A DNA stretch of 63,997 nt, counting the filler, from Sanchytrium tribonematis (Eukaryota): NCBI GenBank assembly GCA_018985235.1. It is 10 parts of 10 records of this genome, joined end to end, with 100 filler letters (N's around TTAATTAATTAA, not from the genome) between each part and the next. Parts side by side here need not be neighbours in the genome. Positions count along the whole stretch, not along the records: positions 1 to 24,857 come from JADGIG010000071.1; positions 24,958 to 29,307 come from JADGIG010000732.1; positions 29,408 to 33,751 come from JADGIG010000733.1; positions 33,852 to 38,192 come from JADGIG010000734.1; positions 38,293 to 42,627 come from JADGIG010000735.1; positions 42,728 to 47,062 come from JADGIG010000736.1; positions 47,163 to 51,493 come from JADGIG010000737.1; positions 51,594 to 55,917 come from JADGIG010000738.1; 2 more parts are not named here. One strand, written 5' to 3'. Position numbers and translations under genes: made by a program. Below, piece by piece: positions 6,106 to 59,631 of this stretch. The notes under the pieces were generated by a model. That model was not told the DNA's origin. It made no database searches and saw only the letters and a list, made by a program, of their open reading frames with translations. Every line of letters starts with the position of its first letter. Positions within the stretch are counted from its first letter, which is position 1.

Positions 6106-8219
6106 TTAAGCTGTATGCTCTACTCCTGACTTTGGTTTTGATCTAAACTGCTTAATACTTCTTTTAATAGGTGTTTTGATTAAAGTCAGTACAAACAAAA
6201 TTAAATTTAAACACAATTTAAGAATCATTCCAACGGACCAATTCACTTTAACTGAGTCGTACTTCCATTTGTAAGCATTTGGATAAGTAGTACTCATTGA
6301 TTTAGCATTAGATTCGATGATAGAATGTCCTTCTTCTAAAATTCGCGTTGATTCGATAGAATTGAAAATAATACGATTTGGTCCTACATAAATAGAGAAT
6401 ACGGGTTACAATCGTTGGAGAAGCATCCATTTCATTTGTGTGTGTCTCTGTTTGGGTAGCATCCGGTTGATTTGTTTCTGTATAATGACTAGCCCCATTT
6501 GCATTTGAACTCATTGTAATTGTTTCTGCAACTAGAATTAATGACTCACTGGTCTCATTTAGTGCTAATATTCTACAACTGCTCTGAGTAGTCGCATAGA
6601 TCCCACTCAAATTGCATTGATTTTTGAATGTTTTACCAAACACTCCGGGTGCCAATGGATTATTGCTTAAATCGCATTTTTGCAAGCCAGTTGAATTATA
6701 AATGACTACATTTGTTACGAAATTATTTGATATACTCAACTGGGATGGCGCCATAAATGATAAATTACCACTTAAATAATTATTATTAAGATAGAAACTA
6801 GAGCCTTTCAATTGGAAAGAGATGCATCCACTTAGATGATTATGAGATAAATCTAATGTATTGACATATTGGAGGGACTGTGAGATGCTTCCAATAAAAT
6901 AATTGTTGGAAATATTGAAATAATCACGAGTTGAGTTAATTTGCCAATTTGGAATATTTCCTGTCAAATTATTACCAGACATGTCAATAGATGTCAAAGT
7001 AGATGGAAGATCATAGCTAATATTGCCAGACATCCCATTATTATCTAATTTGAGCGTAAAAATTGATTTTGGTAGTGATTTTGGAAATTTATCAAATTTG
7101 TTGAAACTCAGTCTCAAATCACTGATAGCCGAGTGTCCCAAATCAATTTCACCAGATAATTGATTGTGAGATACATCCACTAATTTAAATGTGGCAAGTC
7201 TCCAGAGAATAAATTATATGACAAATTTAATATTTGGATGCTGTTGCTCAGCGAAACTGCAGATAAATTGCCATAAAATCTATTCTGCCCTATAATCAAG
7301 TCTGTCAATCCAGATGGCCATGACAAATTACTTGGTATTTCACCACCAAGTAAGTTATTTTCCAAATTCAAAATTTGTAATGAATCTACCAAAATTGGAA
7401 ATGAGCCAGTTAAATTGTTGCTGCTCAAATCTAATATTTGCAAGCTACTAGTTAAATTCAGAATGGATCCATTAAAGTCGGAATTGCCCCAGTTAGTCTA
7501 TTATTGTTTAAATACAATGCTATTAATAAACTGGGCAAATTGAATGGAATCGTACCATTGATTAGATTATTACCGGCATAAAGGTAGCTCAATGTGGATG
7601 GCAGTGAACTTGGTATTGCATCATCAATCAGATTATCGCCCAGTCCGACTGCTTCGACATTTGGTGGAAAATTAGGCATTTTGGTAAATCGATTAACATC
7701 CAACCAAAGCCTAGTCACTCCAGCTGGAAATGATGTTGGTAATCCGCTCAATTGAGTTTCATAAACTTCAAAATAGATCAAAGAAGTTGGAAGCGTGTCT
7801 GGAATTTTTCCATAAATAGGCGTCTGTACGATTCTCAAATGATCCAGCGTATTTGGTAAATCACTCGGAAGTGTGGTATTTAAAGTTGTCTGATATATCT
7901 CTAAAGATGTTATAGCAGGTGGTAAAAATTCACTTTGAATGGTGCCATTAATTTTGGCGTAAGCTATATCTATATACCAAACTTGTTCATTTGGAGCACT
8001 ACCAGAGCACAGTATATTAATATAAGGGCCTCCAATCCCAATTTGCTTGCTATAACCGCAGCAATCTGCTGGAATACTCTGAAATAGAATTGGTTCTGTT
8101 ATATTCATATTTAAACCTTGTAGAAATCTCATAACGAGTGGACAATCTGTGGATACCCCATTGACACGCGTCATCATAGTCAAATAAATGATAAATATGG
8201 ATTTTAAAACGGACTTCAT
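6106..8219 (-). pseudogene. Cell-surface LRR protein, two frameshifts (about 7480 and 7185) plus a 19-nt intron (6384-6402)
   Basis: Signal peptide, DC..DCC cap, LxxLxLxxNxLxG repeats over three ORFs, S/T stalk and TM tail; the two upstream breaks have no GT-AG solution. Confidence 0.7.
6384..6402 (-). other. 19-nt spliceosomal intron GTATTCTCTATTTATGTAG
   Basis: Removal joins ..IVT-R-PNR.. in frame to the 6106-6297 TM-tail ORF; same position as introns at 43607 and 45352. Confidence 0.85.
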
Positions 8220-8339
8220 TTGAAATGTAATTTATTTGGCCTAGTTGAAATATTTTAAAAGCCATTCAAGAAACTTTTATTAGAAATCAATATTTTGTAA
8301 ATACTTGTCATTTTTATCTATAGATATTCAAAATTCTAT

Positions 8340-9221
8340 TTATTTAATTTCTTTCCATAAAATACTCCGTAATCCACTATTAATAGCTATTTTACGTGCA
8401 AACCATCTATCACTCGTCATCACATCCACATAATCATCCTTCAACAACCAACATGGACTCCAATTCTTCCTTTTTGAATATCTCAAACAATCATGCCATC
8501 TCGTATACACTGGAATTCCATAAATTTGATCATTTTTAAATGGAGAATCCATGATAATCGTGTGAAAGAAGGATTCATCAGGCACCGTCGTATGTTTAAA
8601 GAATTGAATCCAATCTGTCAACCATTTTTGATTTGTAAACATATAACTGATAAATGGCTTAGAAAGCATCACCCATTGAGAATATTTATAAATTGGAGCA
8701 TGATTTGGTGTAATATCATATCTAGTACAATTCGAATTCTCACATCTCGCTTTTGTCCGAGTGCATTCTGGCCAATTATATTTACAAGTTGGAATTGGAT
8801 AATCATCGAATAATTGACTTGTATTTGGATCTAATTCACTTAAAAATGATTCTAAATCTCTTAATGGTCTTAATGGGACAGTCATACCATCTAAAAAGTA
8901 GAAATAATCAATATTAGTAGAATCTGCTGATTTTAATAATAGTAATTGTGCGAATAATAGGGAGTATTTGCCCCAATTACACTTGATTTGTTGATCAATA
9001 ACATGTATATTGGGTTGATCAAATGATTCCTTGTTGATTTTCTTATCAAAATGGATAAAATAGTCATGATTTGGTGAATAATAATGAGTAATAAATTCTT
9101 TGAATCCCTGTAGCGTATCATGATCATGTACTAGAAAACCGAATCCAATTCTAGGTGGATGAATGGGATATAAATAGAATAAACACCAAATTAAAATGAC
9201 GATTGGCAAAATGTATTTCAT
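8340..9221 (-). CDS. GT14 (core-2/I-branching/xylosyltransferase-like) glycosyltransferase
   Basis: FLVH, IHFDKK, WGKYSL, SQWVMLS, PDESFFHT, FARK motifs; type II anchor. Confidence 0.85.
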   Translation of the reverse strand: MKYILPIVILIWCLFYLYPIHPPRIGFGFLVHDHDTLQGFKEFITHYYSPNHDYFIHFDKKINKESFDQPNIHVIDQQIKCNWGKYSLLFAQLLLLKSADSTNIDYFYFLDGMTVPLRPLRDLESFLSELDPNTSQLFDDYPIPTCKYNWPECTRTKARCENSNCTRYDITPNHAPIYKYSQWVMLSKPFISYMFTNQKWLTDWIQFFKHTTVPDESFFHTIIMDSPFKNDQIYGIPVYTRWHDCLRYSKRKNWSPCWLLKDDYVDVMTSDRWFARKIAINSGLRSILWKEIK

Positions 9222-9433
9222 GGTGTTTCACTCCGAGTGATGCAACCCATCACAAAATATTACAAGTCAATTCATTTTCACTTTTTAATGATACGGCACT
9301 TATGATCATCTAGATGCGTCATTCACCAATTCATCATTCATTTGTGCAAGCATCTTTGATTGGTCTCGAAATTGGATGAATGCATTCCGTTACAACTTGA
9401 TCTCATCATAAATAGAGACTCAGCACCCCTCTC

Positions 9434-9586
9434 ATGTTCAAAAGAATGATGAGATTGAAATATAAAAAGAGAATTGAAGATGATTTATTAAGTACGGAAT
9501 CAGATGATACATTATTGGATTTTGAAGAACGAGAATATAACAGATTTATCATGTATGAAAAGAAACAACGACAATCATACTTTTAA
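9434..9586 (+). CDS. Putative 50-aa small protein (absent from the ORF track)
   Basis: ATG TTC AAA..TTT TAA; CCCC 5 nt upstream and AATAAA overlapping the stop, as in neighbouring genes. Confidence 0.4.
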   Translation: MFKRMMRLKYKKRIEDDLLSTESDDTLLDFEEREYNRFIMYEKKQRQSYF

Positions 9587-9682
9587 TAAATTAAAATGGC
9601 TATCATTTTTAAGAATCTTCTAATTTTAAACCAATGAAATGCCATTCATAAACTATAAATAGCAGCAACCCCCCATTTACCC

Positions 9683-10579
9683 ATGTTTTTATTATGTCAG
9701 TGGATTGCAACAGTATCACTTGATTGTCCAAAATTGATTCCATTTGCGCAACAATTGAATATCCATATTATAAATACAACTATTTGGAATCAAATCAATT
9801 TAGATTGTTGCTTAGCACCAGGTATTAAATGTGGCAATAACAAAGTGATTGTGATTAATTGGAGTGGTATGAACTTGAATGGGACTTTAAATGGCAATTT
9901 ATCAGGGTTATCAGCACTTTTCAATTTGGATGTTTCCAATAATCTGATTAATGGAACCATTTCTACCTTGTTGCCATCGAATTTGAATGCGCTACATGTA
10001 GATGGTAATTATTTAAATGGTACATTGACAAATTGGACATTACCTCTAAATTTACAAACTTTGAATATCAATTCAAATCAATTTACAGGATCTCTACCAT
10101 CTGGTATTTCCCAATTGACACAGCTAACTGCTAACTACAATCTATTTACTGGTGTGATTCCATATTTATCACCAAGTTTGAATACACTTACTGTGGGCAA
10201 TAATTTGTTGACTGGGTTTGTGAATATTCCACCCTTTTTGAAACAATTATTTCTAGGTCGCAATTTATTGACTGGTGATTTGCCAATCATGCCAGATTCA
10301 TTAAATATCATATTTCTAGGTGGAAATCAATTTACTGGGACTATTAGTGCCTATAAACCACAATATTTGTGGATCAGTGACAATTTATTTACTGGTTTGA
10401 ATATTACAGATTATTCTGCAATTCTTCCAGGTCAATGTTCTCTCAATAATAATCCATTATTGGGAGCATCTAATTTACCACCATTGGGTGTTTGTTATGA
10501 AATAGGGCTGTATTCACTTCAAACGACTCAATTATCTGGTATATTAAATTCATTTAGTTGTCACAGTCTAGGTGAATGA
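9683..10579 (+). CDS. Secreted LRR protein without TM tail
   Basis: Short signal peptide, LDC..LDCC..GIKC cap, about 9 LRRs; candidate 19-nt intron at 10539-10557 would change the last residues. Confidence 0.8.
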   Translation: MFLLCQWIATVSLDCPKLIPFAQQLNIHIINTTIWNQINLDCCLAPGIKCGNNKVIVINWSGMNLNGTLNGNLSGLSALFNLDVSNNLINGTISTLLPSNLNALHVDGNYLNGTLTNWTLPLNLQTLNINSNQFTGSLPSGISQLTQLTANYNLFTGVIPYLSPSLNTLTVGNNLLTGFVNIPPFLKQLFLGRNLLTGDLPIMPDSLNIIFLGGNQFTGTISAYKPQYLWISDNLFTGLNITDYSAILPGQCSLNNNPLLGASNLPPLGVCYEIGLYSLQTTQLSGILNSFSCHSLGE

Positions 10580-10813
10580 ATTAAAAATACATTGAATTGT
10601 TTAATAAATAGATGAAAGGGAATTGTTTTGCCCAAATTTCTGTTTTACTTGCATTGCTTGCATATCGAGTTTACCACTTGTTATTGGGTCTGTGTATATT
10701 GGATAAATGACAAAGCATTCTGTGTTTTCTGTAAGACCAGAGTCAATTCTGTGTCATTTGAAAGTGTTTTGCAATTTGCAACATAAAAAGGGAAATGACC
10801 CCACAAATTTACA

Positions 10814-11554
10814 ATGCTTTTCACTTCAATGATCAATGCAATAGCAGCAAAGAATACACCAAATCCATATCAACATTCTATATCAAATGGTACTGAAGTA
10901 TTCTCAGTGACTCACAATTATACAAAGTGTGAAATTATAACTAAATCTGAGAATAAGAGTCCTGCGACAGTCAAATGCGGTTACTTTCCGAAACTTAATC
11001 AAGTTAAATTTAGTGGTAAATTGCCTTATTCTTATAAATCTACTGAAAAATCAATTAAAAAGATATTTTTCCCTCATTCCCTTGATTTTATTGGAAACAG
11101 CATTTGTGTGATAAATACTGCTGGTTCTATGGCCTGTGGTACTCAATTCCCAGACTGGGTATCCAATGGTGAAGTGACACTCAAATCCATCCCAATTGCC
11201 GCTAATAATTCAAATTATCTAATTACTTCTGAGGTCAGGTTTTCACCCACCAAGTCATTTATGTGTGTTACAGGATATTACCGCATTCATAAAACAAAGA
11301 AAGAAAATGGACATTTTAGCACGACAGATATTTATTGCACACCTTTCGGAAAATCTCAAAATGGCAAAATTTTATTTATAAATGCCTTTGAGTGGATCAA
11401 AATTAATAGTTTGACTAACGTAAATGCCATAGTAGTTTCCGAGGACAATATCTGTGGGCGTATAGGTGATGAAATAAGGTACTCTTGTATTTCTGTGACA
11501 GAACCTTTCGAGAAATTAGCAAATGCCAGAATCACATCTTATTTAAGTCAATAA
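10814..11554 (+). CDS. Secreted Cys-patterned protein, intact family member, unknown function
   Basis: 246-aa ORF, signal-like start, eight Cys with spacing conserved in the 2450 and 761 copies. Confidence 0.7.
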   Translation: MLFTSMINAIAAKNTPNPYQHSISNGTEVFSVTHNYTKCEIITKSENKSPATVKCGYFPKLNQVKFSGKLPYSYKSTEKSIKKIFFPHSLDFIGNSICVINTAGSMACGTQFPDWVSNGEVTLKSIPIAANNSNYLITSEVRFSPTKSFMCVTGYYRIHKTKKENGHFSTTDIYCTPFGKSQNGKILFINAFEWIKINSLTNVNAIVVSEDNICGRIGDEIRYSCISVTEPFEKLANARITSYLSQ

Positions 11555-11715
11555 ATGCAACTCTCTATTCATTTTTTGCTGTGCAACTTTCAAAATAGAT
11601 GATTGTTGTGTTGTGAGCACTAAACATTTTATTGTCGAGGCAGCAGTCACATTACTGATGCGTATTAGAAACGCATGTCGTACAAATACAATTACAAATC
11701 ACAAAATACCCCTCG

Positions 11716-12258
11716 ATGTTCTTTCACCTGTTGATGCTTTCCAAATCGATCAATATCACCCATTTAACAACGAATGAATTAAAATGGTTCAAACATAATA
11801 AAAATATGCGATTATGGATCATATCCTCATTAAAAATGACAGCATCAATTTATGAAATGGAATTATTAAATCGACGACAAATGAAAGCACATGACATCAA
11901 TGAATTCCAACATGGCAATACGACATACAATCAACTAATAAATGACCATGTGAAATGGATTAAAACGTATGATGTGATTTTGAGACATCAAATGGATTTA
12001 AAAGGAATGGAAATAGAAATCAATGCATTTCAATTAAAATGGTATGTGGATCTAATGAAGACATGGGTGATGGATGATGTATTTATTGATGAATTGGAAT
12101 GGAAGAGATATTTGATGAAATCATTTATAATGGATATTCGATTGAATGGATTTATAGATGACATTGTGGGGATGTTGGGTGAATTGGGGAATGCTATGCA
12201 AGATCATGATGTGATTTGTTGTTTTAATGACATTGAAAAATCTCCTTTTTTGAAATGA
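11716..12258 (+). CDS. Hypothetical, probably secreted protein
   Basis: 180-aa ORF, CCCC before ATG, short hydrophobic N-terminus. Confidence 0.55.
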   Translation: MFFHLLMLSKSINITHLTTNELKWFKHNKNMRLWIISSLKMTASIYEMELLNRRQMKAHDINEFQHGNTTYNQLINDHVKWIKTYDVILRHQMDLKGMEIEINAFQLKWYVDLMKTWVMDDVFIDELEWKRYLMKSFIMDIRLNGFIDDIVGMLGELGNAMQDHDVICCFNDIEKSPFLK

Positions 12259-13738: not shown

Positions 13739-13884
13739 ATTGTGCAATGTTAAACTGTTATTTGACTCATCGGTGTCTGGTTGGTACCATGTTTGTCACA
13801 TGCTGCAGATGTCGTCATTGATTGCGACATAATTGACGTGATTTGCCATTTTAATAGAAATGCACTATCCTCCTTGTTTTGCGA

Positions 13885-15341: not shown

Positions 15342-15467
15342 AAGATTGTTTGAAATATTCGCAATACCTTGACATTTTAATTGGTTCTCTAGAATTCACG
15401 TGCCTCCGTATGATGCAATTTGACGTCATTGTGATCTTTTAAAAATCTCTCTTTCCCCCAATTTGAA

Positions 15468-16946: not shown

Positions 16947-17064
16947 CTGTAGTTTCCAATCGAAATAAAAAATGATCAAAATATCCAAAAATCTTGGAAA
17001 CACGTTTTTTCAACCAATCAAATTTAATTTCAACTTCAAACTCGATATTTCCCCCAAACCCAAA

Positions 17065-18362
17065 ATGCAGCAAGAAGCAGAGTATATTCGTCAACATATC
17101 CCATCTCCATATATCCCACTCATATTTAAAATCAAATCTGATTTAGGATTGACTATATTGGAAATTCCAGATATCAAAATCCCATTTTTAAGTGCATCTG
17201 AATCTAAGCAATTGGTAATCCAACAAACACTCTCATTAGAAAGCAAATTACAAATATTAAGTAAAACCAACCAAAAACAATGGAAATATATTATAAATGA
17301 GCTAGAAATGCAAATATTGCAGCATAATGAATTAACAAAACATAAAATAAAAGAATTGGTACAGGGACAAGTTCAACCCACTGGATCATTTATACAAAGC
17401 ATCTATAATTTTGCATTAGGCAGTATCGGTGGCGCTATTGGTGCATTTTCTATTTATCCAATTGACTTGGTAAAAACTCGAATGCAAAATCAAAGAAATG
17501 TAGTTGGTGAAGTCATGTACAAGAATAGTTGGGATTGTTTTAATAAAGTATTCAAAAGGGAAGGATTACGCGGATTATATGGTGGATTAGCACCTCAAAT
17601 GGTGGGCGTGGCACCTGAAAAAGCCATAAAATTAACTAGCAATGAATTTGTGAGATCATTTTGGGATGAAGAAGATATTCCACTATGGGGTGAAGTATTA
17701 GCTGGCTGCATAGCTGGTGGATCACAAGTTATCTTCACTAATCCATTGGAAATTGTCAAAATTCGATTGCAACTTCAAGGAGAATTGGGATTAAAATCAA
17801 ATGCTGTGGAAATTATTAAGCATTTGGGTTTAGTTGGATTATACAAGGGTGCTGGGGCATGTTTATTGCGTGATATTCCATTTAGTGGCATCTATTTTAC
17901 TGCATATAATCATTTTAAAAAGGATCTCTTTCATGAAGAAGCAAAAGGCAAATTACCCATTTCTGAGTTGCTAATGAGTGGCGCCGTAATTTCATATTGA
18001 CTTAGTTGGCTGGGATGCCATCTGCATACTTGACAACCCCCGCAGATGTCATAAAAACGAGATTGCAAGTGGAAGCACGAAAGGGACATACTTCCTACAC
18101 GGGGATCATTCACTGCTTCAAGACCATTTTAAAAGAAGAAGGCTATCGTGCATTGTTTAAAGGCGGTGCTGCTAGAGTATTTAGATCCAGTCCGCAATTT
18201 GGAGTGACTTTGGCGAGTTATGAATTATTAAAAAGAAGTTTCCCACTCCCATCTAATCATAAACCGACTCAATATACAGAAGATATGATGCTCAAAAGAA
18301 TGGAGAGAGCATCTAAGATATTAAGTGAAATGAAATATAAATATGGTGTGCCTAATAAATAA
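17065..18362 (+). CDS. AGC1: Mitochondrial aspartate/glutamate carrier (Agc1/SLC25A12-13 type), two exons
   Basis: [44 protein letters not shown]; intron 17986-18005; start chosen at CCC-preceded ATG 17065. Confidence 0.9.
17986..18005 (+). other. 20-nt spliceosomal intron GTAATTTCATATTGACTTAG
   Basis: Removal restores the conserved carrier sequence [15 protein letters not shown]. Confidence 0.92.
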
Positions 18363-18379
18363 TTTGAAATTTATTTATT

Positions 18380-29199: not shown

Positions 29200-29407
29200 T
29201 TTAAAAAGGAGACATTTGTGATTTTTAAATGGACGTGTGCGTATCTGCTGATTGGTAAAAACTATATAAAAACATCATTTATTGATTTCATGATTTAATC
29301 TTGTTTCNNNNNNNNNNNNNNNNNNNNNNNNNNNNNNNNNNNNNNNNNNNNTTAATTAATTAANNNNNNNNNNNNNNNNNNNNNNNNNNNNNNNNNNNNN
29401 NNNNNNN

Positions 29408-31293: not shown

Positions 31294-31894
31294 CTAAACC
31301 ATTCTTTTTACTTCAAAAAATCTTTTCAGATAATTAACTTGGAAAAGACAAACGCCAATGACTATTACCACTTGGAATAGAGTCCACCAAACAACACGAT
31401 CTCTAGTGTTTTCACTGGTTTTACGATGAGCCTGTTCTCTATGTATTAGATACTCCTGTTCTGTTTTGAGAACATGAACATCTTGATATAAATTTTTGAT
31501 TTCTTTACCAACTGGATCTAGTTTCTGACCAGCTTTCAAACTCTGCTCTTCTGAAGTTTGATAATCTTCATCAGTCATAAAATTAAAGGTTATAGTTTTC
31601 AAATCATTGCTTTTGGTATTGACAAAGCAATATTGAAAATCTCCTGCGTTAAATAAAGGTACCTTCCACTTCAGCTGTAAATTGATGAAAATATATTGAT
31701 TCACCTTGTAAATTTAAGACTTGCTTTCCATTAGGATCATTCATAGTAACGTCAATCTTGGTGTCTCCACCTTCACTCACCTGAAAGCCTAAGCTGGCTT
31801 CTTTTCCAGTTTTCACAGGATCGTAAAAGCACTGCAAAGCATATCTATTGAGGACAAATGTAAAGGCATTTGCAACAAACAAAAAATGTAACAT
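31294..31894 (-). CDS. EMP24: p24/Emp24 GOLD-domain cargo receptor, two exons, 193 aa
   Basis: FQVSEGG, YCF.N, RVVWW, YLKRFFEVKRMV; intron 31644-31662. Confidence 0.9.
31644..31662 (-). other. 19-nt spliceosomal intron GTACCTTTATTTAACGCAG
   Basis: Removal gives AEVE-G-DFQYCF, the conserved GOLD motif. Confidence 0.92.
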
Positions 31895-33288: not shown

Positions 33289-33751
33289 TTACATGATAAT
33301 TTCGTTGTGGACATTATTCTTTAACTCTTTGTGCGGTAAAACCACACAGTTTCTGACAACGACCTCACTAGAGACATGTACGTCATCCGCTAAATAAATA
33401 AAAAATACCCAAAATTGTCGCGCTTTGTTGTTTAACACCATTGACAACATAGCTGTTGTTTTCATCATTTGTAGGAATTTTTGCTCCAACTAAATTTGAT
33501 GCTTTGATATTTCCAAAGACAACTTCAACTTGACTTAAAGGAGAGCCTTCGACGCGTGCCCACTTGCCAATAAAGTTGCTTTTTCCAATAATACTGTGCA
33601 TGACACAAGCATATGGATCGATATGAGTTTGCTCAGCAATAATTGCGTCTCTTACTCTCACACCATCACCAATGTAAACATTTGGGCCAATGCTGACATT
33701 TGGGCCAATTTTGGCAGTAGAGCTAATTTGTGCAGTAGGATGGATTGCACA
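33289..33751 (-). CDS. Mannose-1-phosphate guanylyltransferase alpha-like (GMPPA/Psa2), 3' part
   Basis: Hexapeptide repeats AKIGPNVSIGPNV, IGKWARVEG, RNCVVLPHKEL..EIIM; intron 33390-33408. Confidence 0.88.
33390..33408 (-). other. 19-nt spliceosomal intron GTATTTTTTATTTATTTAG
   Basis: Removal gives SATIL-A-DDVHVSSEVVVRNC. Confidence 0.9.
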
Positions 33752-35847: not shown

Positions 35848-35859
35848 TAAATATTTGAT

Positions 35860-43346: not shown

Positions 43347-44947
43347 TTATTTACTCATCTGCATAGACATACGCTGTTTAGGTCGTCTCATTGGTGTTTT
43401 AGCAACTACAAATCCAACCAATAACAAGTTAATAGCCAATTGGATCAATTGCAAAATATTTAATTTAAATTCAAATTGCTGTATGTTGCCATTCCATCCA
43501 CTTGCTGCTGCTAATAATGTAGTTGCATTTTGCGAGAAAGTAGTCTCTTGTCTCCATGTAGTAATAGATTTGATGGTGGAAGTTGATTTTATATTGATAA
43601 TTGGGCCTAAATCAATTTATAAATACGAGTGACGACAGATGCTTTGATATAATCATTAGAAAATGTGGCGGTGGACTCGCTCGTTGATTCAAAAGTGGCA
43701 GCAGTACTCAATTCAGAAGTGGAATGCAAGGTGCTTGCTTTGGTTGATCCTGCAACAAATGGGGTAGTTTGCAATTCAGTCGTCATCATACTAGATGATT
43801 TAAAAGTGCTAGAGTATGCCAAACTAGTCAGTTTACTAGTGAAATGAGGCATTGTACACTGATATCCATTATTAGCGAACAAATTGCCTTTTTGACATTT
43901 CGCTGGCAAATATTGCAATCCATTAGCATTCAACATTGGATTATATTCCAAATAACACATATTCAATATAGATGTATCTAAAATAGTCACATCTGTGATC
44001 ATATTTACAGAAGCATCTAGAAAATTGGGTTTCTTAAAAACTGCAGGACCTTGAAATTTATTTGCCCATATTCTACATTCTGTACACCCAATGGTCACAT
44101 TTAAACATCCTGTAAACTGATTTTCAATAATGCCCAGTTCTGTAATTTGCTGTAATAATTGATACGGAAATACACTCGCAAATGAATTATATTCAAAATA
44201 TATCGTATTTAGACTTAATGGCCATTCAGTAGGTAATTCACCAGATAATAGATTATAACTGAATGAATAGTATGTAATTTGATTGGGCACACGTTCTACA
44301 GACCCTGAAAAGTAATTGCTATCCATGTACAAGATATTTAATGAATCTGGAAAATTGTTCACAGATCCCGTAAATAAGTTATTAAAACCTCTAAATTCTT
44401 TCAATCCACTTGGTAAATTATTAGGGATATCCCCACTTAAAGAATTGCCTAATAAATAAAGCGTGGTCACTTTTGGAGGTAAAAGTGGAATACTTCCATT
44501 TAAAACATTTCCATAGAGCATCAAAGTGGTCAAATTAGATGGTAAAGTAGATGGAATGGGTCCATATAGCTTATTACTACTTAAATGCAATGTGCTAATG
44601 GAGCTTGGGAGATTCTCAGGGATTTGGGTGGATAATTTCAAATTTGAGTATATTTTTAAAGTATACAGATTCTTGGGTAAACTAGTCGCGTTTAATGTCC
44701 CATTGATATTCGTACCCACTAATTGAATGCTTGTGACTGACGTGGATGTGCAATTAATGGATATTTGAGTGTAATATGTTTGAAATACTTTGGATTGAGT
44801 TGAACTTTGGTAATTACAACAATTTTGAGGAATTAAATTGAACTCTATGGGATCTGTCATGTGCAAATTCAAAGATCTCAAGAAATTCATGGTTAAATCA
44901 CAATCTGTTGCGTATAACATAATAGAGAGCAATGGAAACAATTTCAT
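43347..44947 (-). CDS. Single-pass cell-surface LRR protein, two exons
   Basis: Signal peptide, LRRs, S/T stalk; 20-nt intron 43607-43626 adds an 86-codon TM exon missing from the ORF track. Confidence 0.85.
43607..43626 (-). other. 20-nt spliceosomal intron GTATTTATAAATTGATTTAG
   Basis: Removal gives VVT-R-PIINI..WNGNIQQF..TM..KTPMRR. Confidence 0.88.
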
Positions 44948-45061
44948 GTTTCGTGACGGAAAAAGTCAAGCCACTTTAAAAATTTGAAATCTTAAGTTAA
45001 AAGACGTAAAAATGTTGACTTTTTGGAGAAAACTAGGAGAAATTGTTTTTTTCAATATCTT

Positions 45062-46523
45062 TTAGCTAGTAATTGATTTATTATTAAAGCTATATGATAA
45101 TTTTGTATGTCGTGTCTTGATCAATGTCCGCAATTCAAATATCATCAATATAATCAACATCAAACTCATTAAAATTCTTGAAAACTGTCCCAAATTTATA
45201 TTTAATTGAAACACATGAATATTGCCCACCCATTTCCCCGTTGTAGTGGAAATAGAACCCGTTTGATTACTATTTAATGGCATACTAGTTTTACTCTTTG
45301 ATGCTATCATTTCATGAGTCGTATGTGGTTTTGTTGCACTTAGAATGGGCCCTAAATTAATAAATTTTACGAGTTGGAATTGTAATTACAACTGTAGTTT
45401 CATCTGCCATTAAATTACTCTTCTGTGTTGTCAATGAAGTCACATTTCTAGTAGCACATTTGTAGCTAGTATCTACAAATAATCCAGTTTTAGTGCACAT
45501 AGATGGCAAATTATTGACATTTAATAATGGATTAAAATCAATTTCACACTTTGTAATGGCAGTAGTATTTAAAATAGTCACATTAGTGAACAAATTAAAT
45601 GCCAGTGAGACATAAGTGGGTTTTTGGAGCACGATGGGGCCTTGAAATTGATTATGTTGCAATGCGCAATAGTCGCATATTAAAGTTGTATTTAAGCATC
45701 CAGTAAATTGATTTTCGTAGACGTATAATGCAGTGGATTGTTTCAATAATTGATGAGGTAAAATCCCAATGAGTTGATTATGGGCCACATAAAATTGAGT
45801 TAAAGAAATTGGCCAATCTTGCATTAATTCACCAGTAAATAAATTATATGAAATAGAATATTTAATGCTATGGCTTGGGGTCACATTTATAGTTCCTGTT
45901 AATAAATTAAAATCTAAAATGACATTTGTCAAGGAATCTGGTAGGTAATTGATGGATCCAGTTAGTTGATTATAATAAGAATAAAACCGAGTCAATCCAC
46001 TTGGAAGATTAATTGGAATGGTGCCTTTGATTTTATTACTTGAAATCATTAAGCTGCGAAGATTGGGTGGGAAATTGGGAATGGTGCCATTTAAATTATT
46101 TACTTGCAAGTCTAATGTCACTAAATTGGATGGAAGTTGATTTGGAATAGATCCAGATAGTCTGTTTGTACTCAAAGATAATGTGGATATAGAGTTTGGA
46201 AGATTATTTGGGATTTCACAAGTCAATTTTAGATTAAACGATAAATCAAGATAACTGATATTTTTGGGTAAAGTAGTGGCATTTATGGATCCATTTATAT
46301 TTAAATCATATATTTGAATGGAAGTGACGGAAGTGGAAGTGCAATCGATGGATATTTTAGTGTAAACATCAAAAGTGCTGGTACTTTGATAATTACAGCA
46401 ACTTAGAGGGATGAGGTTAAATTCTATTGGATCTGTGATGTGCATGTTGAGAGATTTGAAGAAATCCAAGGTTAAATCACAATCTGTCGCGTATAACACT
46501 AGAAATAGTGTTTGGAAAATCAT
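45062..46523 (-). CDS. Single-pass cell-surface LRR protein, tandem paralogue, two exons
   Basis: Close N-terminal similarity to the 44947 gene; intron 45352-45370 joins the 45062-45310 TM ORF. Confidence 0.85.
45352..45370 (-). other. 19-nt spliceosomal intron GTAAAATTTATTAATTTAG
   Basis: Removal gives IPT-R-PILS..EMIASK in frame. Confidence 0.88.
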
Positions 46524-51593: not shown

Positions 51594-53987
51594 TCTCAGA
51601 CCATTCTAGAAGTAGTGATTTGTAAATATAAAGTATCTGAAAAAATTGCAGCAATATCCCAAATCCAACCAAATACCTTCCAAATTTGATCTTAATAAAT
51701 AATAATACAATAGAGGTAAATAGCAATACAATTCCGAGTAAGATATACAATTTGGCATTATTGGGACACTTTTCACAATAATTCGATTTTGTGTAAAAGC
51801 CGGATAAGCATTTCCCGCACAAAATTCCAGTATAACCAGTGTCACATTGATTGCTTCCTAAGCATCCTTTTGAAACACACTTGGAATACTCTAAACCGTT
51901 TTCAGTTTGAATTTCATAGTAGTTTACTTTTCCTCGAGGCACTTGGGTACCAGAAATAAAACACTCTGCTCCGTTGGGACACTCAGCGCATATTGGTCTA
52001 ATGCCGTTGCTATCTTTGTATCTGAAAACATTCAGATAGCCAGTAGTACACGTGTAATCAATTGTTGTTTGGAGAAGGTTTCCTCCCATTGTAAAATTAA
52101 CTGTAATGGGAAAGTCACTGGGAATTAAGAAATTGCTTGTTTCTCCTGTCGTATTCCAAATGACACTTTGAATGTTTTTAGTTTTAAAATCAGGATAAGA
52201 GTAGGTGGCTATTGCAATATTAGATAACGGATAAACTGACCCCACTGATACCGAGACCTGTAGTTGTGGAGTGATCGGAAACTCAAATGTGCAATTTTCA
52301 TGATATTCCAAAATAGGCCAAATAATATTGTTTGTGTTGCTGATAGGAGCTATTTGAGGCAAAATAGAAACAACATCAAACAGCCTGAATGATGCTTGAT
52401 TTTTACCAGACACCACAAACAAACTATTTTTAGTGAAAGAAACTAAGGGTGGCATAATTGTCATAATTTGCATCCTACCTTCAACAAGATTGCCAGCTAC
52501 ATTTAAAACGAGCTTCAAAGTATTATTATAAAAAGTACCTTTTTGAAGCCCTAAATTATGAGAATCAAAAATCATTTCCTGTTGACTAGATCCACTCAGT
52601 GATAAGGCCGGAATTGCATATAAATCAGAGCTGCTCAGCACGCGCCTGATCTTCAAAGGAAGCTGGAAGCGTATAATTTGGAAATTGTTCATCACATTGT
52701 AATCAAGAGGTAAAATATAAGCAAAATAAGGATCTACAAAATTGGTGAGTTCCGCAGTTTCACCGAATGTGTCAATGACCAATAAAGACATCGTAGAGCT
52801 TGGTAAAATCGAATAAGCGTGTTGGTTATTATTTTGGTATTTACGTGACCAGTATTTAAAATAATCTCCGCCAGGGGTCTTCAAAGTGTTGTTCAATTTG
52901 AGTGAAAATTCATAGCATAGAGGGTCCGGAAAGCTTCCCACTAATACTATGTTCTTTTTCCAAATTTGCGTGTCCATTTGAGTGTACGAGAAAGAGTAGC
53001 TAAAGTTGGAATTGAAACAAGCGAAATCGGTATCGCAAGGACCAACAAGTTCTTTATAAACTAATGGATTGTTTCTCATTGAGCATATTGTAACAGTCGA
53101 AGGGAGCGTCAATGATTTGAATTTAGTACCATCTGCAATTAATACATTTAATTGACTATTTTGTGGAAAATTAATGCTTGACACTGGATTATTCGAAATG
53201 TCAAGAAAAAAGACTGTAGCCGATAAATCTAAAGTACTTATCAAATTGTTGCGAGCAGAAACATTGACAATGGAAGGAAAATTAGGTAAGGCATTGAGAT
53301 TATTGAAACTCACGTCAAATATGTTTAAATTATAAGTGGATGGAGGTTGCGGAGGCAGGGGTAGAAAAAATGTATCTGGATAAAGGGTAAAATAGTTGTG
53401 ACTAAAATTGTATATGGCAGTAGAAGGTGGAATAGATGCCAAGTAGCCAGAAAATCGATTGTTGGATAAATTGATCTCTCTTATGGGCCCGCAAATTTGG
53501 CCGATAATCTCCCCCGTTATAATATTACTGGACAAATCTATTTTGATATATAACAAGTATTTCGTAAATTGGTAAAAAGTCCGTCGGGTATAATTTCAAA
53601 TTGATTGGAATTGGCAAAATAATTCTTAATTTGATTTACAGGAGGAGGTTTTCCAGTCAATACATTATTTTGTATCATCAGGGTTTCGAGCGATGGAATT
53701 AATAATCCTGAGATATCTCCCGCTAAATTATTATTGCTAAGATCTAGTTTTTTAAGATTGAGTAGGGCATTCAGAGAACCCAATATAGTCGAATCTAAAG
53801 TCACGGTATTTTTAGCTATAGCATTTCCCAATATTCCTGTAACCTGACCAAAATTAGATTCTAGATAACGACATTGGTTCGGAAATACCGAACAGCATAA
53901 GGAATTCAGCGAATCATCTAAATGCTGTAAGAATGCCATGGCATTTTCACAATCCGTACGAGCATAAGCCAAAAGATAGATAAACAT
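51594..53987 (-). CDS. LRR + Cys-rich multi-pass membrane protein, frame break near 53545, 3' truncated
   Basis: Signal peptide, LRRs in both ORFs, CAECPNGAEC..GYTGILCGKC..CEKC, then TM helices. Confidence 0.7.
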
Positions 53988-54048
53988 TTTGTTTTACGAC
54001 TGCAGACGTCCTTGGTAAAACGTAAAGATTTTGAAACAACTTGATAAA

Positions 54049-54339
54049 ATGAGTAAATTCACTGGAGCCATTAATCTTATGTTCGGAATGTTCTTGGCAT
54101 TTGGCGGCATGTTTGCATTTTTAAGCAGAGGATCTTTAATTTCAATGATAATAGGTTCCAGTTTTGGAGTATTAATTGTTGGAAGTAGAAAGCAACCTAT
54201 TGTAATGTTTGTTTTAAGTGGCATTATATCATTAATAATGGGATGGAGATATTTAGAGACCATGAATGTCATGCCTAGCGGTGTAGTTGGAATGATTGCA
54301 TTTTCTATTTGTGTTTTAAATTTGACCCACTTGAAGTAA
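54049..54339 (+). CDS. TMEM14-family small membrane protein
   Basis: GGMFAF..RGSLISMIIG, MGWRY..T..VMPSG. Confidence 0.8.
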   Translation: MSKFTGAINLMFGMFLAFGGMFAFLSRGSLISMIIGSSFGVLIVGSRKQPIVMFVLSGIISLIMGWRYLETMNVMPSGVVGMIAFSICVLNLTHLK

Positions 54340-54360
54340 TTTTACCAAGAAAATAAAATT

Positions 54361-55587
54361 TTATTCAGACTGGTAACTCTTGAAGTATACAGGTTTTTTT
54401 AAAACAGCTGGCAGATATTCAGTATGCTCTTCTTGTGAGTGTCTTTCTCTGCCTCTGTCACCAGTATAATATGGCCAACAATCAAAAGTGTCACTCAATG
54501 GCTCCCAAATAATTGGAACATCTTCAGCAGGTCTATGGGCCATTGTATGAGGATGTTTTTTTGCGTAATCGGTATCATAAAATTTAATGTAATTGTAGGA
54601 TTCAATATCGTATGTGACTTTAACTGATGGTACCATTAATATCTTCCCGAATCCATTTTTGATCAGATCCATGCAGAAGGTAGTAATTTCACTAGCACTG
54701 CATTCTCCAGGCAAGGTCTCATTTTTATTACCATTTAAGCCTCTTCTAAATTCAATATAATTGAATATGGTGGCATTTATAACAGTCATACCATTCCACA
54801 AGCACATCATTTGTACAGGAAGATCGTCTTGTTGTCTTTCCAAGTCATCTTGATTTTGGTTATTTACAACCTCTTGGTTTATAACTTGCTTTGGGGTAGG
54901 ATGCTTTCCAAATTTGCGTTCTTGGACTACCCAAGAGTCATAAAATAATAACCTGCGCCACGCTGTCATCCAAGCCAGATCCATACCACCGGTCAAAAAT
55001 GCATCATTTAACAACTGCTGATGAATTAGCTCTAAGACGTCATTGTAGCAATAAAGTACATCGTTCATAAATATAACAAAATCAGCATGGTATCTATTTT
55101 TAAGTATAGGTTTTATAGCATAATTTCTCATGTAAGCCAAATAATCAATTCTATTGGTTTCAGTATCATTTTTATTTAATGGACTCGTCTCTATTGTGTG
55201 ACTAATGTTATTTAAATTTAATAAGTAATGAAATTCTTTAAGGAGTTTTTTGGTCTTGTCTGAACTTCCACTTTCATATATGTTAATATGGGATCTGATG
55301 AGATACTGGGTTGATAATTTAAGGATATTATGCATCATGTTTGGCAGAATTTCTTGATTGTTGTATAAATTTATGGCTATAAAATAGGAATAGTCTCTCC
55401 GTATAAAGTAATCATATCTATTTTTAATATCCTTATTACAGCCATGTATGCTCTTAGAGTATTTTTTGGTTAGGTAGTGCGACCAAGTGAACGCGTTGTT
55501 TATATGAATATGCGCGATTTGAGAGTAATCAAATGGTAAAAGAGTAAAAATAAAAACAGGGATCAGTTTATAAAAAAACTGGTCCAT
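54361..55587 (-). CDS. GT69 (CAP59/CMT1-like) alpha-1,3-mannosyltransferase
   Basis: AINLYNN, IYESGSSD, RIDYLAYMRN, FMNDV, FYDSWV, CLWNG, ECSASE. Confidence 0.88.
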   Translation of the reverse strand: MDQFFYKLIPVFIFTLLPFDYSQIAHIHINNAFTWSHYLTKKYSKSIHGCNKDIKNRYDYFIRRDYSYFIAINLYNNQEILPNMMHNILKLSTQYLIRSHINIYESGSSDKTKKLLKEFHYLLNLNNISHTIETSPLNKNDTETNRIDYLAYMRNYAIKPILKNRYHADFVIFMNDVLYCYNDVLELIHQQLLNDAFLTGGMDLAWMTAWRRLLFYDSWVVQERKFGKHPTPKQVINQEVVNNQNQDDLERQQDDLPVQMMCLWNGMTVINATIFNYIEFRRGLNGNKNETLPGECSASEITTFCMDLIKNGFGKILMVPSVKVTYDIESYNYIKFYDTDYAKKHPHTMAHRPAEDVPIIWEPLSDTFDCWPYYTGDRGRERHSQEEHTEYLPAVLKKPVYFKSYQSE

Positions 55588-55604
55588 ATTTGAAACCAAC
55601 TGAA

Positions 55605-55917
55605 ATGTGGTCTGAGAGAAGTCGCACTGACCTACCAATTATGCTTAAAGGCCTGCTTTTGCAACAAAGCAATCCATATTCAATTGCTAATCCCGATGGA
55701 ATCATAAACTGTGGGGTTGCTGAAAACACCAGCCAATTGCAAGAATTAAGCACGTATTTTACTGATATCGAAATGAAGGCAGACGACTTTAAATACGGGG
55801 AGTTGCAAGGTAGCAAGAAACTACGTGGTTTGATTGCAGACTTATTCAATCGTCATTTAAGCACAACATGGAAAAGTGAAAATTTAAGTTTACATAATGG
55901 CTGTGGCAGCACTATTG
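55605..55917 (+). CDS. PLP-dependent aminotransferase class I/II (ACC-synthase-like), 3' truncated
   Basis: NPDGIINCGVAEN, YG..QGS..LR..IA. Confidence 0.8.
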
Positions 55918-57042: not shown

Positions 57043-57056
57043 GAAGTTTTAAAAAT

Positions 57057-59631
57057 TTATTCTTCAACAACAGCAAATTTGGAAACCCAATTGAGAAATT
57101 TAATCCTTGAAAGATGCAGACAATCTAAAGAGTCCCGCAAACCCACAGTGACACCATGATGTTCTTCTGTGTCATGCTTTGAATCCAACGCAATGTTGAC
57201 CCGTTTTGGTGGACTGTAAAATTCCATGCAATCTAAACCAAGTACATTGTCGAATAACAACATTATATTGACCGGCAAATCTGGTAAAACCTTGAAAGTT
57301 TCTTTCAAATGATTTAGGTCATTTGCTCCACACTCTTGGTGCAGCAAAATCTTATTATCTTGAAAGCAGATCAATCTTGTAGTAAACCTGGCTATATCTT
57401 TTCTTAACATATAGTCCTTAATATTGATAACTTTGATCGCTATTTCTACCTCATTGTCAACGGTTTGAAATTTTAAATCGCATGATGGATATCCTTTAAC
57501 TCTCATAAAAATTTCCTTATTTAAATGAACTCCTGACAATATTTTTTTCAAAGAAATCTTGTCCAAATTGGAACAACCAAGCTGCTTAAATTCATCTGTT
57601 GTTTGAAGAGTAATATACCTTATTACGCTATGAACATTATAAAGCGAATTCGGCAAATGATTGCTGACACAATATTCAAGGGCCAATTTTAGAAAGTCCA
57701 AAGATTCAGATGTCGCGTTTCTCAAGTCAGAATTTACAAGGTCTGATTCAATTGCAGTCCCGGTAATTCTCATTAGCAAAAGAACTAAAATTTTATCACT
57801 TGAATTTTTCACTAGGCCTTTCGGTTTTGCGGAAAACCAAGATGCGATTTCTTTCATACATTTTACATCATTAAAGTATTTCTTCTCGCCTTTGCGTAAC
57901 TCAATTCCAATCTGCAAGCTTTGAGACGTTAATTCGAGCTAAGTAAGACAAAAATACAATATCAAGACAAGTCTTACAATTTTTTAAAAAAGATAAAGTA
58001 TCCTCAAATGAATTAGTTCTCTTTTTCCTCATTTCACAGTCTGCAATGTAATCGATATGTGTGAGTGAATCTAATTGTGAGGATAACGTATTGACATTGT
58101 AGTTCAAATCATGATAGAAATATGTTACTTTTAAAAATTCGACAATTTCATTTTTTTGCTCAGTAATACTCAGAAAATTTATAGGAATTTTTAAATTTTC
58201 GATAATTTCAGAAGTCAATTCATTTCCAGCAACATTTTTTGATTTCCATAAAGTTCCCTCACAATCAAGAATCTTTTCATATTTCTCAACTTGCTTGTTG
58301 TCTGTCATTAAAATAAATCTAGCATCGCCTTTCAATTTCTTTTTTATAAGGTTAATGTCAGTCTTGCACATATGGACAAGATTTTTTTCTTTGTATAGTA
58401 AAGTATTTTTGACGATTACGACATCTGCAAAATCAAATATTTTTTGACTTTTCTGATTAGTGCAGAGTATTTTGATTGAACCTTGAATGAACAGCCTTTC
58501 GATAGTTTTACGATCTTCCATGTATGCATGGCAGTAACAAACTCCATTAGAAATTTGCTGCTTAAGTGAATTGGCGACTTCAACTTGTACTTTACTTGGC
58601 TGAGAAAAATGAACTGAAATATATGAAGATGTTTGTTGACAACTTAGTTTTGAATTACAAATAATAACAGTCTTTTTGTTTTTAAGTTTCTTCAAAATAT
58701 CTGGCAATTTTTTGCTTAATTGAGCATCAAAGTACTTTTCGTTTTTCAACTCAAAACCTAAAACCATACTACCAGGTATGTGTTCTGGACCACTCAAAGT
58801 CTCACCATTTTGCTGCAAGTCGACATGTGCAGAAATCCAGGAATTTAGCTCTAAAGATTCACTATTGTGAAAGAATACAAGCTTGGCTTTTAAGATGGAT
58901 TTTTTCTCCAAGTAAAAGCAGATTGAGACTGTTGATTCAAAAGATTGGAAGTTTTTTTGAGAGATTTCGGTCATGTCAAAGCAAATAAGATCGCTCCTTC
59001 TCAGGTCCTCTATGCTCAATTTTGAAATGTCAAAACCATTAAACTTGAGATTCTCCGTCCTTTCAAAGAATTCATTAAACGAGAACACAATAGCTTCACC
59101 ACAACCATGAGTCAATGATTCCAAGTAAGAATTTAAATACCCTTTTCTTACTTCAATTTTCTCATGTGATCTAAGTCTTCTCGTCATTAGGGTGCTAACA
59201 TCATCGATGTTTTTATTGCTAATTTCAGAGACATGATTATCAAATTGCTGAGGTCTTTCTTTGTATTTAATGATATCATTTAAGGATTTCTTTTTCTTTT
59301 TATTCAAATTTCGATTTTTTCCAGAAAAGCTACTGTAACCGTCGACAATACGAGATTCGTTACTTAAGTCAACACTTACAACTTCCTTTGCATATTTTTT
59401 AAAATGCGGACTTAGTGATACCTTTTTACCGAGTGGTTTGCGCAAGAATGGTTTCGCGTGAAAAGATCTGGCAGAATTAGGCTGGTTATTGAGTAATTTA
59501 AGGGGGCTTGACATTAAATATAGAGGAGAGCTAGATTTTCTCTGGGATTCTATTTCATCGTAGAAATTACAATTTTCTTCAATTTCCATTAGTTGACTAG
59601 TCGATTCTAAAAAAGATTTTACAAAATTCAT
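57057..59631 (-). CDS. Degenerate Mer3/HFM1-like (Ski2-type helicase + Sec63 domain) protein, two exons
   Basis: GVCYCHA, DRKTIERLF..GSIKILCT, ADVVIVKNT, FLKVTYFY, LRKGEKK; intron 57939-57957. Confidence 0.6.
57939..57957 (-). other. 19-nt spliceosomal intron GTATTTTTGTCTTACTTAG
   Basis: Removal joins CLDI|LELTSQSLQIGIELRKGEKK, fusing the 576-aa and 286-aa ORFs. Confidence 0.88.

What the first reader, a model, noticed from the sequence alone, without database searches (positions are those of the whole stretch)
6384..57957. Ultra-short 19-20-nt spliceosomal introns with a fixed A at -6
Seen: eight GT-AG segments of 19 or 20 nt (6384-6402, 10539-10557, 17986-18005, 31644-31662, 33390-33408, 43607-43626, 45352-45370, 57939-57957). 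Seven restore a reading frame, four of them in recognisable genes (AGC1, p24, GMPPA-like, Mer3-like), and they occur on four separate contigs. All start GTA and end YTNAYNYAG, with A always sixth from the end. I found no longer intron. Known: introns this short are described from Stentor (15-16 nt) and the chlorarachniophyte nucleomorph (about 18-21 nt); typical fungal introns are much longer. Inference: this fungus-like genome splices by a length ruler with the branch point fused to the acceptor, implying a 14-15-nt lariat loop and a modified spliceosome. Gene finders with minimum intron lengths would miss them. I cannot tell whether this has been reported for this lineage.
Basis: partly seen in the sequence, partly recalled or inferred. 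Interest (0 to 1): 0.92.

Follow-up and report, generated by a model that had tools for sequence, protein, structure and literature searches.

The report
Tiny 19-20-base introns of sanchytrid fungi
Genes of this alga-parasitising sanchytrid fungus are interrupted by 19-20-base segments with intron-type ends that recur at the same places in related sanchytrid genomes; they are likely real spliceosomal introns, shorter than any fungal introns I found in print, and were overlooked because the published sanchytrid proteins were predicted without allowing for introns.

Summary
Confirmed at DNA level. All eight GTA...YTNAYNYAG segments exist; seven restore long reading frames (7 at 19-20 nt against about 0.04 expected; 14 against 5.7 with bare GT..AG). 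The DNA is from a sanchytrid fungus (closest named matches Sanchytrium tribonematis and Amoeboradix gromovi). Proteins called without an intron model from other sanchytrid assemblies break at the same places, and their read-through tails decode to 19- or 20-nt introns with A at -6 (AGC1, p24, 13 LRR-family proteins), so assembly error is rejected. They are most likely U2-type spliceosomal introns with a minimal GTA donor and the branch point fused to the acceptor, at five distinct positions, about 0.16-0.18 per kb. Splicing itself, branch use and the ruler mechanism are untested here. The layout is known from Stentor, Yarrowia and Encephalitozoon, and equal or shorter introns from Stentor, Mikrocytos and nucleomorphs; the shortest fungal figure I read was 24 nt. 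No searched paper describes sanchytrid introns, and the scan had not noted this on other DNA. A. gromovi keeps most core splicing factors; Slu7 and Prp18 are unannotated (weak hint). New variant of a known kind.

The parts
17986..18005 (+). 20-nt phase-0 intron in AGC1 (mitochondrial aspartate/glutamate carrier); exon 1 16972-17985, exon 2 18006-18362
   Evidence: Mito_carr on both sides; best of 282 stop-free trial edits are all 20-nt deletions, the called one is the only GT..AG among them, no 1-2-nt indel rescues; A. gromovi and two ENA proteins break at the same residue, one decoding only to a 19-nt intron with A at -6
31644..31662 (-). 19-nt phase-1 intron in a p24/emp24 gene; exon 1 31663-31894, exon 2 31294-31643
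   Evidence: EMP24_GP25L on both sides; joined protein aligns without a gap across the junction to Rhizophlyctis p24; P0122 (84% identical, another assembly) reads through a 19-nt intron with A forced at -6
33390..33408 (-). 19-nt phase-1 intron in a GMPPA-like gene (5' part runs off the contig); exon 2 33289-33389
   Evidence: Upstream part matches human GMPPA 289-358, downstream part matches its last 30 residues 391-420; no relative's tail available
57939..57957 (-). 19-nt phase-0 intron in a degenerate Ski2/Mer3-type helicase gene; exon 2 57057-57938
   Evidence: Exon 1 matches ASCC3 helicase C-terminal region (E 1.8e-6), exon 2 Sec63 domain; joins 560 and 293 codons; no relative's tail available
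43607..43626 (-). 20-nt phase-1 intron in an LRR surface-protein gene, between the Ser/Thr stalk and the exon for the C-terminal hydrophobic segment; exon 1 43627-44947, exon 2 43347-43606
   Evidence: Joins 446 and 85 codons; intron-free S. tribonematis paralogue P0130 is contiguous over the junction and a 20-nt GT..AG removal is within 1 point of the best of 486 edits
45352..45370 (-). 19-nt phase-1 intron at the homologous place in the neighbouring LRR paralogue; exon 1 45371-46523, exon 2 45062-45351
   Evidence: Joins 402 and 95 codons; S. tribonematis P0129 breaks at the same Arg with a tail best decoded as 19 nt
6384..6402 (-). 19-nt phase-1 intron at the homologous place in an LRR paralogue that also carries two ordinary frameshifts upstream (about 7460-7500 and 7180-7215); exon 2 6106-6383
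   Evidence: Joins 270 and 91 codons; trial edits against P0130 do not single it out; frameshifts without intron signals seen
10539..10557 (+). 19-nt motif-bearing segment at the family intron position of an LRR paralogue (9683-10538); only 4 codons follow after removal, so status as a working intron is uncertain
   Evidence: Motif 8 of 8 positions; the 81%-identical S. tribonematis orthologue P0136 has a tail compatible with the same 19-nt motif
10104..10123 (+). 20-nt strict-motif match inside LRR coding sequence: a counter-example, not an intron
   Evidence: Removal gives a stop after 3 codons; the encoded residues are identical in P0136

Best explanation
These 19-20-nt GT-AG segments are likely major (U2-type) spliceosomal introns of a sanchytrid fungus, and the decoded tails of relatives' proteins indicate that the same size and layout are shared across both named sanchytrid genera. 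Shown: the segments, their motif, frame and homology restoration, and breaks at the same positions in other assemblies. Inferred mechanism: the whole intron is recognised as one unit (intron definition). The donor is reduced to GTA followed by T-rich bases, with no G at +5; U2 would pair with YTNAY so that the A at -6 is the branch point; the YAG five bases later is the only acceptor in reach; the donor-to-branch distance is held at 14-15 nt, probably the lower limit that this spliceosome can loop, while deletion bias in a compact parasite genome removes anything longer. With the acceptor this close to the branch point, the second-step factors Slu7 and Prp18 would be dispensable, as in yeast. 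In the LRR family one ancestral intron sits between ectodomain and membrane-anchor exon.
For: Motif and length excess. AGC1: the best 8 shown of 282 stop-free edits are 20-nt deletions and only the called one is GT..AG. p24: best 8 shown of 594 edits are 19-nt; called cut scores 75.0 against 69.5 and 67.0 for the other two GT..AG and 68.5 for the best 1-2-nt indel, and aligns without a gap. Independent assemblies: AGC1 proteins of A. gromovi and two ENA records break at the same residue; P0004 allows GT..AG lengths 19 (score 60, exon 2 recovered) or 22 (score 6), with A forced at -6; p24 P0122 allows 19 (or 26), A forced at -6. LRR family: of 41 non-window members, 26 lack a C-terminal hydrophobic segment by my cut-off; 12 of 26 tails fit the strict motif at 19 nt (2.9 in shuffles), 2 more at 20 nt at the same phase-1 Arg, and 0 of 15 members with such a segment fit at 19. 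At 11 of 12 Arg junctions the next residue excludes G at +5. A. gromovi annotation holds the core spliceosome and Dbr1. Same -6 geometry in Stentor (PMC9505925), Yarrowia and E. cuniculi (PMC2483917). Slu7/Prp18/Prp22 not needed below 7 nt branch-acceptor distance in yeast (PMC3392075).
Against: The motif is not sufficient: 1 sense-strand strict match (10104) lies in conserved coding sequence. One of eight (10539) restores no long frame, and 6384 lies in a gene with two ordinary frameshifts and is not singled out by trial edits. A 1-2-nt indel formally reopens the frame at 7 of 8 sites, at the price of 6-7 extra residues. The LRR tails descend from one ancestral intron, so they are one position, not 14 events; 10 of them come from an unnamed library and may include other contigs of this same genome; secondary peaks at 13, 22 and 26 nt (7, 5, 6 of 26) arise in the same tails through codon ambiguity. 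Only five distinct positions were examined, two (GMPPA-like, helicase) without support from relatives. The missing Slu7/Prp18 rows are weak evidence: the name Prp16 was also absent, only half the proteins were annotated, and intron-split ORFs can drop out.
Confidence: 0.87

Rival explanations
1. The segments are spliceosomal introns but are spliced poorly or conditionally, as in microsporidia; retention would be common, and in the LRR family it would give a secreted form lacking the membrane anchor.
For: Short E. cuniculi introns average under 20% spliced (PMC6349667); Mikrocytos 16- and 17-nt introns 63% and 37% (PMC10245619). Donor is minimal; LRR intron separates ectodomain from anchor exon; intron-free anchored paralogues coexist.
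Against: AGC1 would lose its third carrier repeat and p24 most of its length if unspliced; 18-21-nt nucleomorph introns are mostly over 80% spliced (PMC6009652).
Confidence: 0.25
2. The breaks are assembly or amplification errors, or pseudogene frameshifts, and the intron-like ends were picked after the fact.
Against: Same breaks in other assemblies with tails decoding to the same motif; no 1-2-nt indel rescues AGC1; excess persists with bare GT..AG; contigs of run X1 bridge 17986, 31644 and 33390 without gaps (X1 may be the source, so not independent).
Confidence: 0.02
3. The frame is restored during translation (programmed frameshifting or ribosome hopping), without splicing.
For: 19 = 18+1 and 20 = 18+2; a single shift formally reopens 7 of 8 sites.
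Against: No single shift passes AGC1; a shift would add 6-7 residues that homologues lack; flanking direct repeats are 0-3 nt, no matched take-off and landing sites; GT, YTNAY and YAG conservation is unexplained.
Confidence: 0.03
4. They are non-spliceosomal introns of the Ire1-cut HAC1/XBP1 type, which are about 19-26 nt in several fungi and animals (sizes and consensus recalled).
For: Size coincidence only.
Against: 0 of 8 have a CNGCNG motif at either junction; all have GT-AG and a branch-type motif; they lie in five unrelated gene types.
Confidence: 0.01

Closest known systems
15-16-nt introns of Stentor coeruleus and other heterotrich ciliates (PMC9505925, passages; PMC13685798, passages)
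   Same: GUA donor followed by U-rich bases, branch A at position 10 of 15 or 11 of 16 (that is -6), narrow two-length distribution, low intron density, core spliceosome retained.
   Different: 4 nt longer (predicted loop 14-15 against 10-11 nt); visible lengths are 3n+1 and 3n+2, not 3n; a clearer YTNAY branch motif; a fungus, so independent origin.
16-17-nt introns of Mikrocytos mackini (PMC10245619, section read)
   Same: Parasite, two adjacent lengths only, conserved sequence, few hundred to few thousand per genome scale of density.
   Different: Mikrocytos has only 17-19 spliceosomal proteins and no U1/U5 snRNA identified; A. gromovi retains U1-70K, U2AF, SF1 and branching factors; sanchytrid introns also occur in a transporter and a metabolic gene.
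18-21-nt introns of the Bigelowiella natans nucleomorph (PMC6009652, passages)
   Same: Same size class, AU-rich, caliper-type recognition proposed.
   Different: Nucleomorph introns have no discernible branch A and are dense (3.1 per gene); here the -6 A is fixed and density is about 0.16-0.18 per kb.
Branch point fused to acceptor in Yarrowia lipolytica and Encephalitozoon cuniculi (PMC2483917, passages); microsporidian mini-introns (PMC6349667; 24-nt shortest in Vairimorpha necatrix, PMC10759460)
   Same: Fungal or fungus-related; branch motif followed by 2 nt and AG puts the A at -6; no polypyrimidine tract.
   Different: Yarrowia introns are long; E. cuniculi median 32 nt with a strong GTAAGT donor; here 19-20 nt with no G at +5, in an aerobic fungus sister to Blastocladiomycota with introns deep inside genes.

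Membership tests
U2-type spliceosomal intron | GT...AG termini | tested here: met
   8 of 8
U2-type spliceosomal intron | Branch-site motif able to pair with U2 GUAGUA, with an A near the 3' end | tested here: met
   YTNAY with A at -6 in 8 of 8; forced or compatible in relatives' tails. Sequence only
U2-type spliceosomal intron | Removal restores the frame and the homologous protein | tested here: met
   7 of 8 restore a long frame; exact length confirmed by homology for AGC1, p24 and 43607
U2-type spliceosomal intron | Extended donor consensus with G at +5 | tested here: not met
   0 of 8 in the window, excluded at 11 of 12 relatives' Arg junctions; also lacking in Stentor's accepted introns, so not disqualifying
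U2-type spliceosomal intron | Removed from mature mRNA | not testable with these tools
   Needs RNA reads of a sanchytrid
U2-type spliceosomal intron | Lariat intermediate branching at the A | not testable with these tools
   Needs lariat sequencing; Dbr1 is annotated in both sanchytrids
U2-type spliceosomal intron | Major spliceosome present in the lineage | tested here: met
   Core proteins in the published eggNOG table of A. gromovi; snRNAs not examined, none in this window; this genome itself not held
U12-type spliceosomal intron | RTATCCTT donor (consensus recalled) | tested here: not met
   0 of 8 (position table)
Ire1-cut HAC1/XBP1-type intron | CNG|CNG loops at both junctions (consensus recalled) | tested here: not met
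   0 of 8 at either junction
Programmed frameshift or translational bypass | A single shift or matched hop passes without a stop and fits homologues | tested here: not met
   None at AGC1; lower scores elsewhere; repeats 0-3 nt
Reduced spliceosome (microsporidian/mikrocytid type) | Loss of most spliceosomal proteins | tested here: not met
   At least 13 factors listed for A. gromovi; only Slu7 and Prp18 (and the name Prp16) without a row among those queried

The most novel reading that the evidence does not exclude
The whole phylum Sanchytriomycota has only 19-20-nt introns, the shortest modal introns in fungi and animals, and its otherwise near-complete spliceosome has lost the second-step factors Slu7 and Prp18 because every acceptor sits five bases from its branch point: a natural test of the yeast distance rule and of the minimal lariat in a fungal spliceosome.
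Probability: 0.3. Interest if true: 0.87.

Novelty: new variant of a known kind. Interest (0 to 1): 0.72.

Why it matters
It adds a fungal phylum to the short list of lineages that splice introns of 20 nt or less, and one that sits next to tractable model fungi (Allomyces, Blastocladiella) and keeps most spliceosomal proteins, so the changes that allow a 14-15-nt lariat loop can be found by comparison. It shows convergence with ciliates on a GTA donor and a branch A at -6. Practically, the two public sanchytrid proteomes were called with TransDecoder on genomic contigs (PMC8371127), so every intron-bearing gene is truncated or split (seen for AGC1 and LRR proteins; SF1/BBP appears as two adjacent ORFs); statements on gene loss and reduced metabolism in this phylum, and phylogenomic sets that use these proteomes, deserve a re-check with a minimum intron of about 15 nt.

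Tried and rejected
No RNA holder listed for window 9500-19400; the one run found (X1) is DNA and may be the source. No whole genome is held, so no genome-wide scan or snRNA search. The single metagenome scan, for the AGC1 junction with a 15-27-nt intron, gave 1 hit, L001, a bacterial contig matching by chance; no relative's DNA was obtained, so relatives' introns are decoded from protein tails only. Two tails (P0002, P0003) stop inside the intron and give position but no length. Rfam: 0 families in the window. PDB search with the helicase exon 2 gave nothing useful. Other candidates rejected as introns: 13543-13561, 37145-37162 (18 nt, no A at -6, non-coding flanks), 12280-12300 (21 nt, in frame in a signal-peptide region, no evidence), 6287, 10104, 35936. 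Frame breaks at about 7200, 7480, 13300, 34760, 35080, 53560 and 53994 carry no matching signal and are ordinary lesions. Of the 150 hits only those with the family's N-terminal cysteine motif and under 1500 residues were kept; hits that gave 43 proteins, 2 of them the window's own and left out. One paper search was uninformative. The TPPP paper on sanchytrids (PMC10459994, passages) has no intron statement. The AGC1 tree groups the window with A. gromovi and two ENA proteins (100/100) but does not resolve the sister group.
Full report
What the window is. The window is ten contigs joined by spacers, 33% G+C, gene-dense. No whole genome is held. The AGC1 reading frame finds Amoeboradix gromovi (EukProt EP00835) as best named hit, 68% identical over 90% of its length, while other fungi cover at most about two thirds. 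The LRR genes find Sanchytrium tribonematis (EP00834); one pair is 81% identical over 292 residues. In a 30-row tree of the carrier domain the window, A. gromovi and two ENA proteins form a clade at 100/100. The DNA is therefore from a sanchytrid (Sanchytriomycota), algal parasites with 10.5-11.2-Mb, about 35% G+C genomes placed sister to Blastocladiomycota (PMC8371127, passages).

The observation. All eight segments are present, six of 19 nt and two of 20 nt, on four contigs; 8 of 8 begin GTA, end YAG and have A at -6 and T at -8; none has G at +5. The strict motif is found 7 and 4 times at 19 and 20 nt against 0.7 and 0.8 in 20 shuffled copies. Asking which matches join a long upstream frame to a long downstream frame gives 7 at 19-20 nt against about 0.04 from other lengths; because the motif was drawn from these cases I repeated the count with looser patterns: 7 against 0.8 for GTA..YAG and 14 against 5.7 for GT..AG (p 0.002). 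Three of the 11 strict matches are not introns, one of them sense-strand in conserved coding sequence. 10539-10557 restores no long frame. Seven or eight introns in 43 kb of long ORFs is 0.16-0.18 per kb.

Homology fixes the length. For AGC1 the eight best shown of 282 stop-free trial edits against 17 homologues are all 20-nt deletions; the called one is within 0.1 of the top and the only GT..AG; no 1-2-nt indel avoids a stop. For p24 the eight best shown of 594 edits are 19 nt; the called cut (75.0) beats the other two GT..AG cuts and the best indel, though shifted non-GT-AG cuts score up to 80.5; the joined protein aligns without a gap across the junction. The GMPPA-like gene matches human GMPPA before the break and its last 30 residues after it. 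The helicase gene has an ASCC3-like region before and a Sec63 domain after. In three LRR paralogues the intron falls in the same Arg codon; an intron-free S. tribonematis paralogue is contiguous there. For 45352 and 6384 the low-complexity stalk makes trial edits less decisive.

Other genomes. Galindo et al. called sanchytrid proteins with TransDecoder on genomic contigs; 'intron' occurs only in the reference list of the main text and 'splic' not at all. Such proteins read into introns, so their tails carry intron sequence. AGC1 of A. gromovi and of two ENA records breaks at the same residue as the window. The tail of P0004 allows GT..AG at 19 or 22 nt; only 19 recovers exon 2 (score 60 against 6) and it forces A at -6 and T at -9. 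The p24 protein P0122 allows 19 or 26 nt and forces A at -6. So the AGC1 intron is 20 nt here and 19 nt there, with the A moving with the 3' end. In the LRR family, of 41 non-window members 26 lack a C-terminal hydrophobic segment by my cut-off; 12 of 26 tails fit the strict motif at 19 nt (2.9 in shuffled tails), two more at 20 nt at the same Arg, and 0 of the other 15 fit at 19. Three of these are S. tribonematis proteins; ten come from an unnamed library of 50% clusters and could include other contigs of this genome. Peaks at 13, 22 and 26 nt in the same tails stem from codon ambiguity; 19 is the commonest and matches the DNA seen here. These tails are one ancestral position, so five positions are known in all, three with support from other assemblies. 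Contigs of DNA run X1 bridge three of the introns with no gap, but X1 may be the source.

How it most likely works. Shown: size, motif, frame restoration, conservation. Inferred from established splicing chemistry: U2 pairs with YTNAY and the A at -6 attacks the GT; the loop is 14 or 15 nt; the YAG follows after two bases. The donor offers little beyond GTA, so length and the fused branch-acceptor would carry most of the specificity; the counter-example at 10104 shows that something more (A+T content, context, or tolerated mis-splicing) is involved. In yeast Slu7, Prp18 and Prp22 are not needed for the second step when the branch-acceptor distance is under 7 nt (PMC3392075, passages). In the published eggNOG table of A. 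gromovi I found rows for Prp8, SF3B1, U2AF65, U2AF35, SF1/BBP (two adjacent ORFs), U1-70K, Prp17, Cwc25, Yju2, Isy1, Prp22-type helicases, Dbr1, SNRNP40, cactin, Sub2 and Snu13, and none for Slu7 or Prp18 by name or by recalled KEGG and KOG identifiers. The name Prp16 was also absent and only about half of the proteins are annotated, so this is a hint, not a loss. The spliceosome is not of the stripped microsporidian type.

Comparison with what is known. Stentor introns are 15-16 nt with GUA and the branch A at -6 (PMC9505925, passages); Mikrocytos 16-17 nt (PMC10245619, section and passages); the Bigelowiella nucleomorph 18-21 nt without a discernible branch A (PMC6009652, passages). A branch motif two bases before the AG is described for Yarrowia, and the E. 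cuniculi consensus has the same form (PMC2483917, passages). The shortest fungal figure that I read is 24 nt in Vairimorpha necatrix (PMC10759460, one passage); E. cuniculi introns are about a third of 76 nt and two Rozella introns about 30 nt (PMC6349667, passages); the shortest animal median is 22 nt (PMC13644364, first third read). A survey of 263 fungi lists no sanchytrid clade in its table (PMC8476143, passages). From memory only: E. cuniculi minimum about 23 nt, Babesia microti about 20 nt; reviews by Whelan and Fast and by Black et al. (2023) were not read. Searches for sanchytrid with intron (2 papers), Amoeboradix/Sanchytrium with splic/intron (10 papers), Sanchytriomycota with genome (27 listed), and short-intron terms showed no description of sanchytrid introns; subscription papers are outside this library. 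The scan's own notes hold nothing on this genome, this sequence or sanchytrids.

Verdict. A real feature, very likely spliceosomal introns, apparently undescribed for this phylum and at the short end for fungi. The architecture has precedents, so it is a new variant of a known kind. The open steps are RNA proof, a genome-wide length distribution and a proper spliceosome inventory.

Noticed in passing
window 34249-36971: Broken tyrosine-recombinase gene (Phage_int_SAM_4, weak Phage_integrase; one in-frame stop and one frameshift) followed by an ORF, a minus-strand ORF with a RuvC-like look (by eye, no Pfam hit) and a SET-domain ORF: possibly a Crypton-like or virus-derived mobile element.
   Followed up: partly
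window 6106-8219, 9683-10571, 43347-46523, 51594-54341: Large family of signal-peptide LRR proteins with an N-terminal cysteine cap, Ser/Thr stalk and C-terminal anchor, shared with S. tribonematis; members occur with or without the intron before the anchor exon, so retention could yield soluble forms.
   Followed up: partly
window 57057-59637: Ski2/Mer3-type helicase gene whose helicase part is so degenerate that Pfam finds no helicase domain; only the ASCC3-like C-terminal region and Sec63 domain are recognisable.
   Followed up: partly
window 47886-51493: Ty3/gypsy-type pol ORF of about 1200 residues with protease, RT, RNase H and integrase domains, open up to the contig end.
   Followed up: no
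window 12237-16946: Tandem array of three or four related 460-500-residue genes with no Pfam hit; one carries a frameshift near 13300.
   Followed up: no
window 27949-30457, 42728-43332, 54361-55638, 8340-9227, 4142-5395: Ordinary genes: pyridine-nucleotide oxidoreductase, Cdc37-like, weak AA9-like (LPMO) match, CAP59 mannosyltransferase, Core-2/I-branching enzyme, GH130-like; none needs an intron.
   Followed up: no
window 1-19900 and 29408-33751 (run X1): Paired contigs with clustered substitutions at roughly a third to a half of the depth suggest a diploid or mixed sample.
   Followed up: no
PMC8371127 supplementary file 4, A. gromovi rows 1135-1136: SF1/BBP is annotated as two adjacent ORFs on one contig, as expected if an unrecognised tiny intron splits it.
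   Followed up: no
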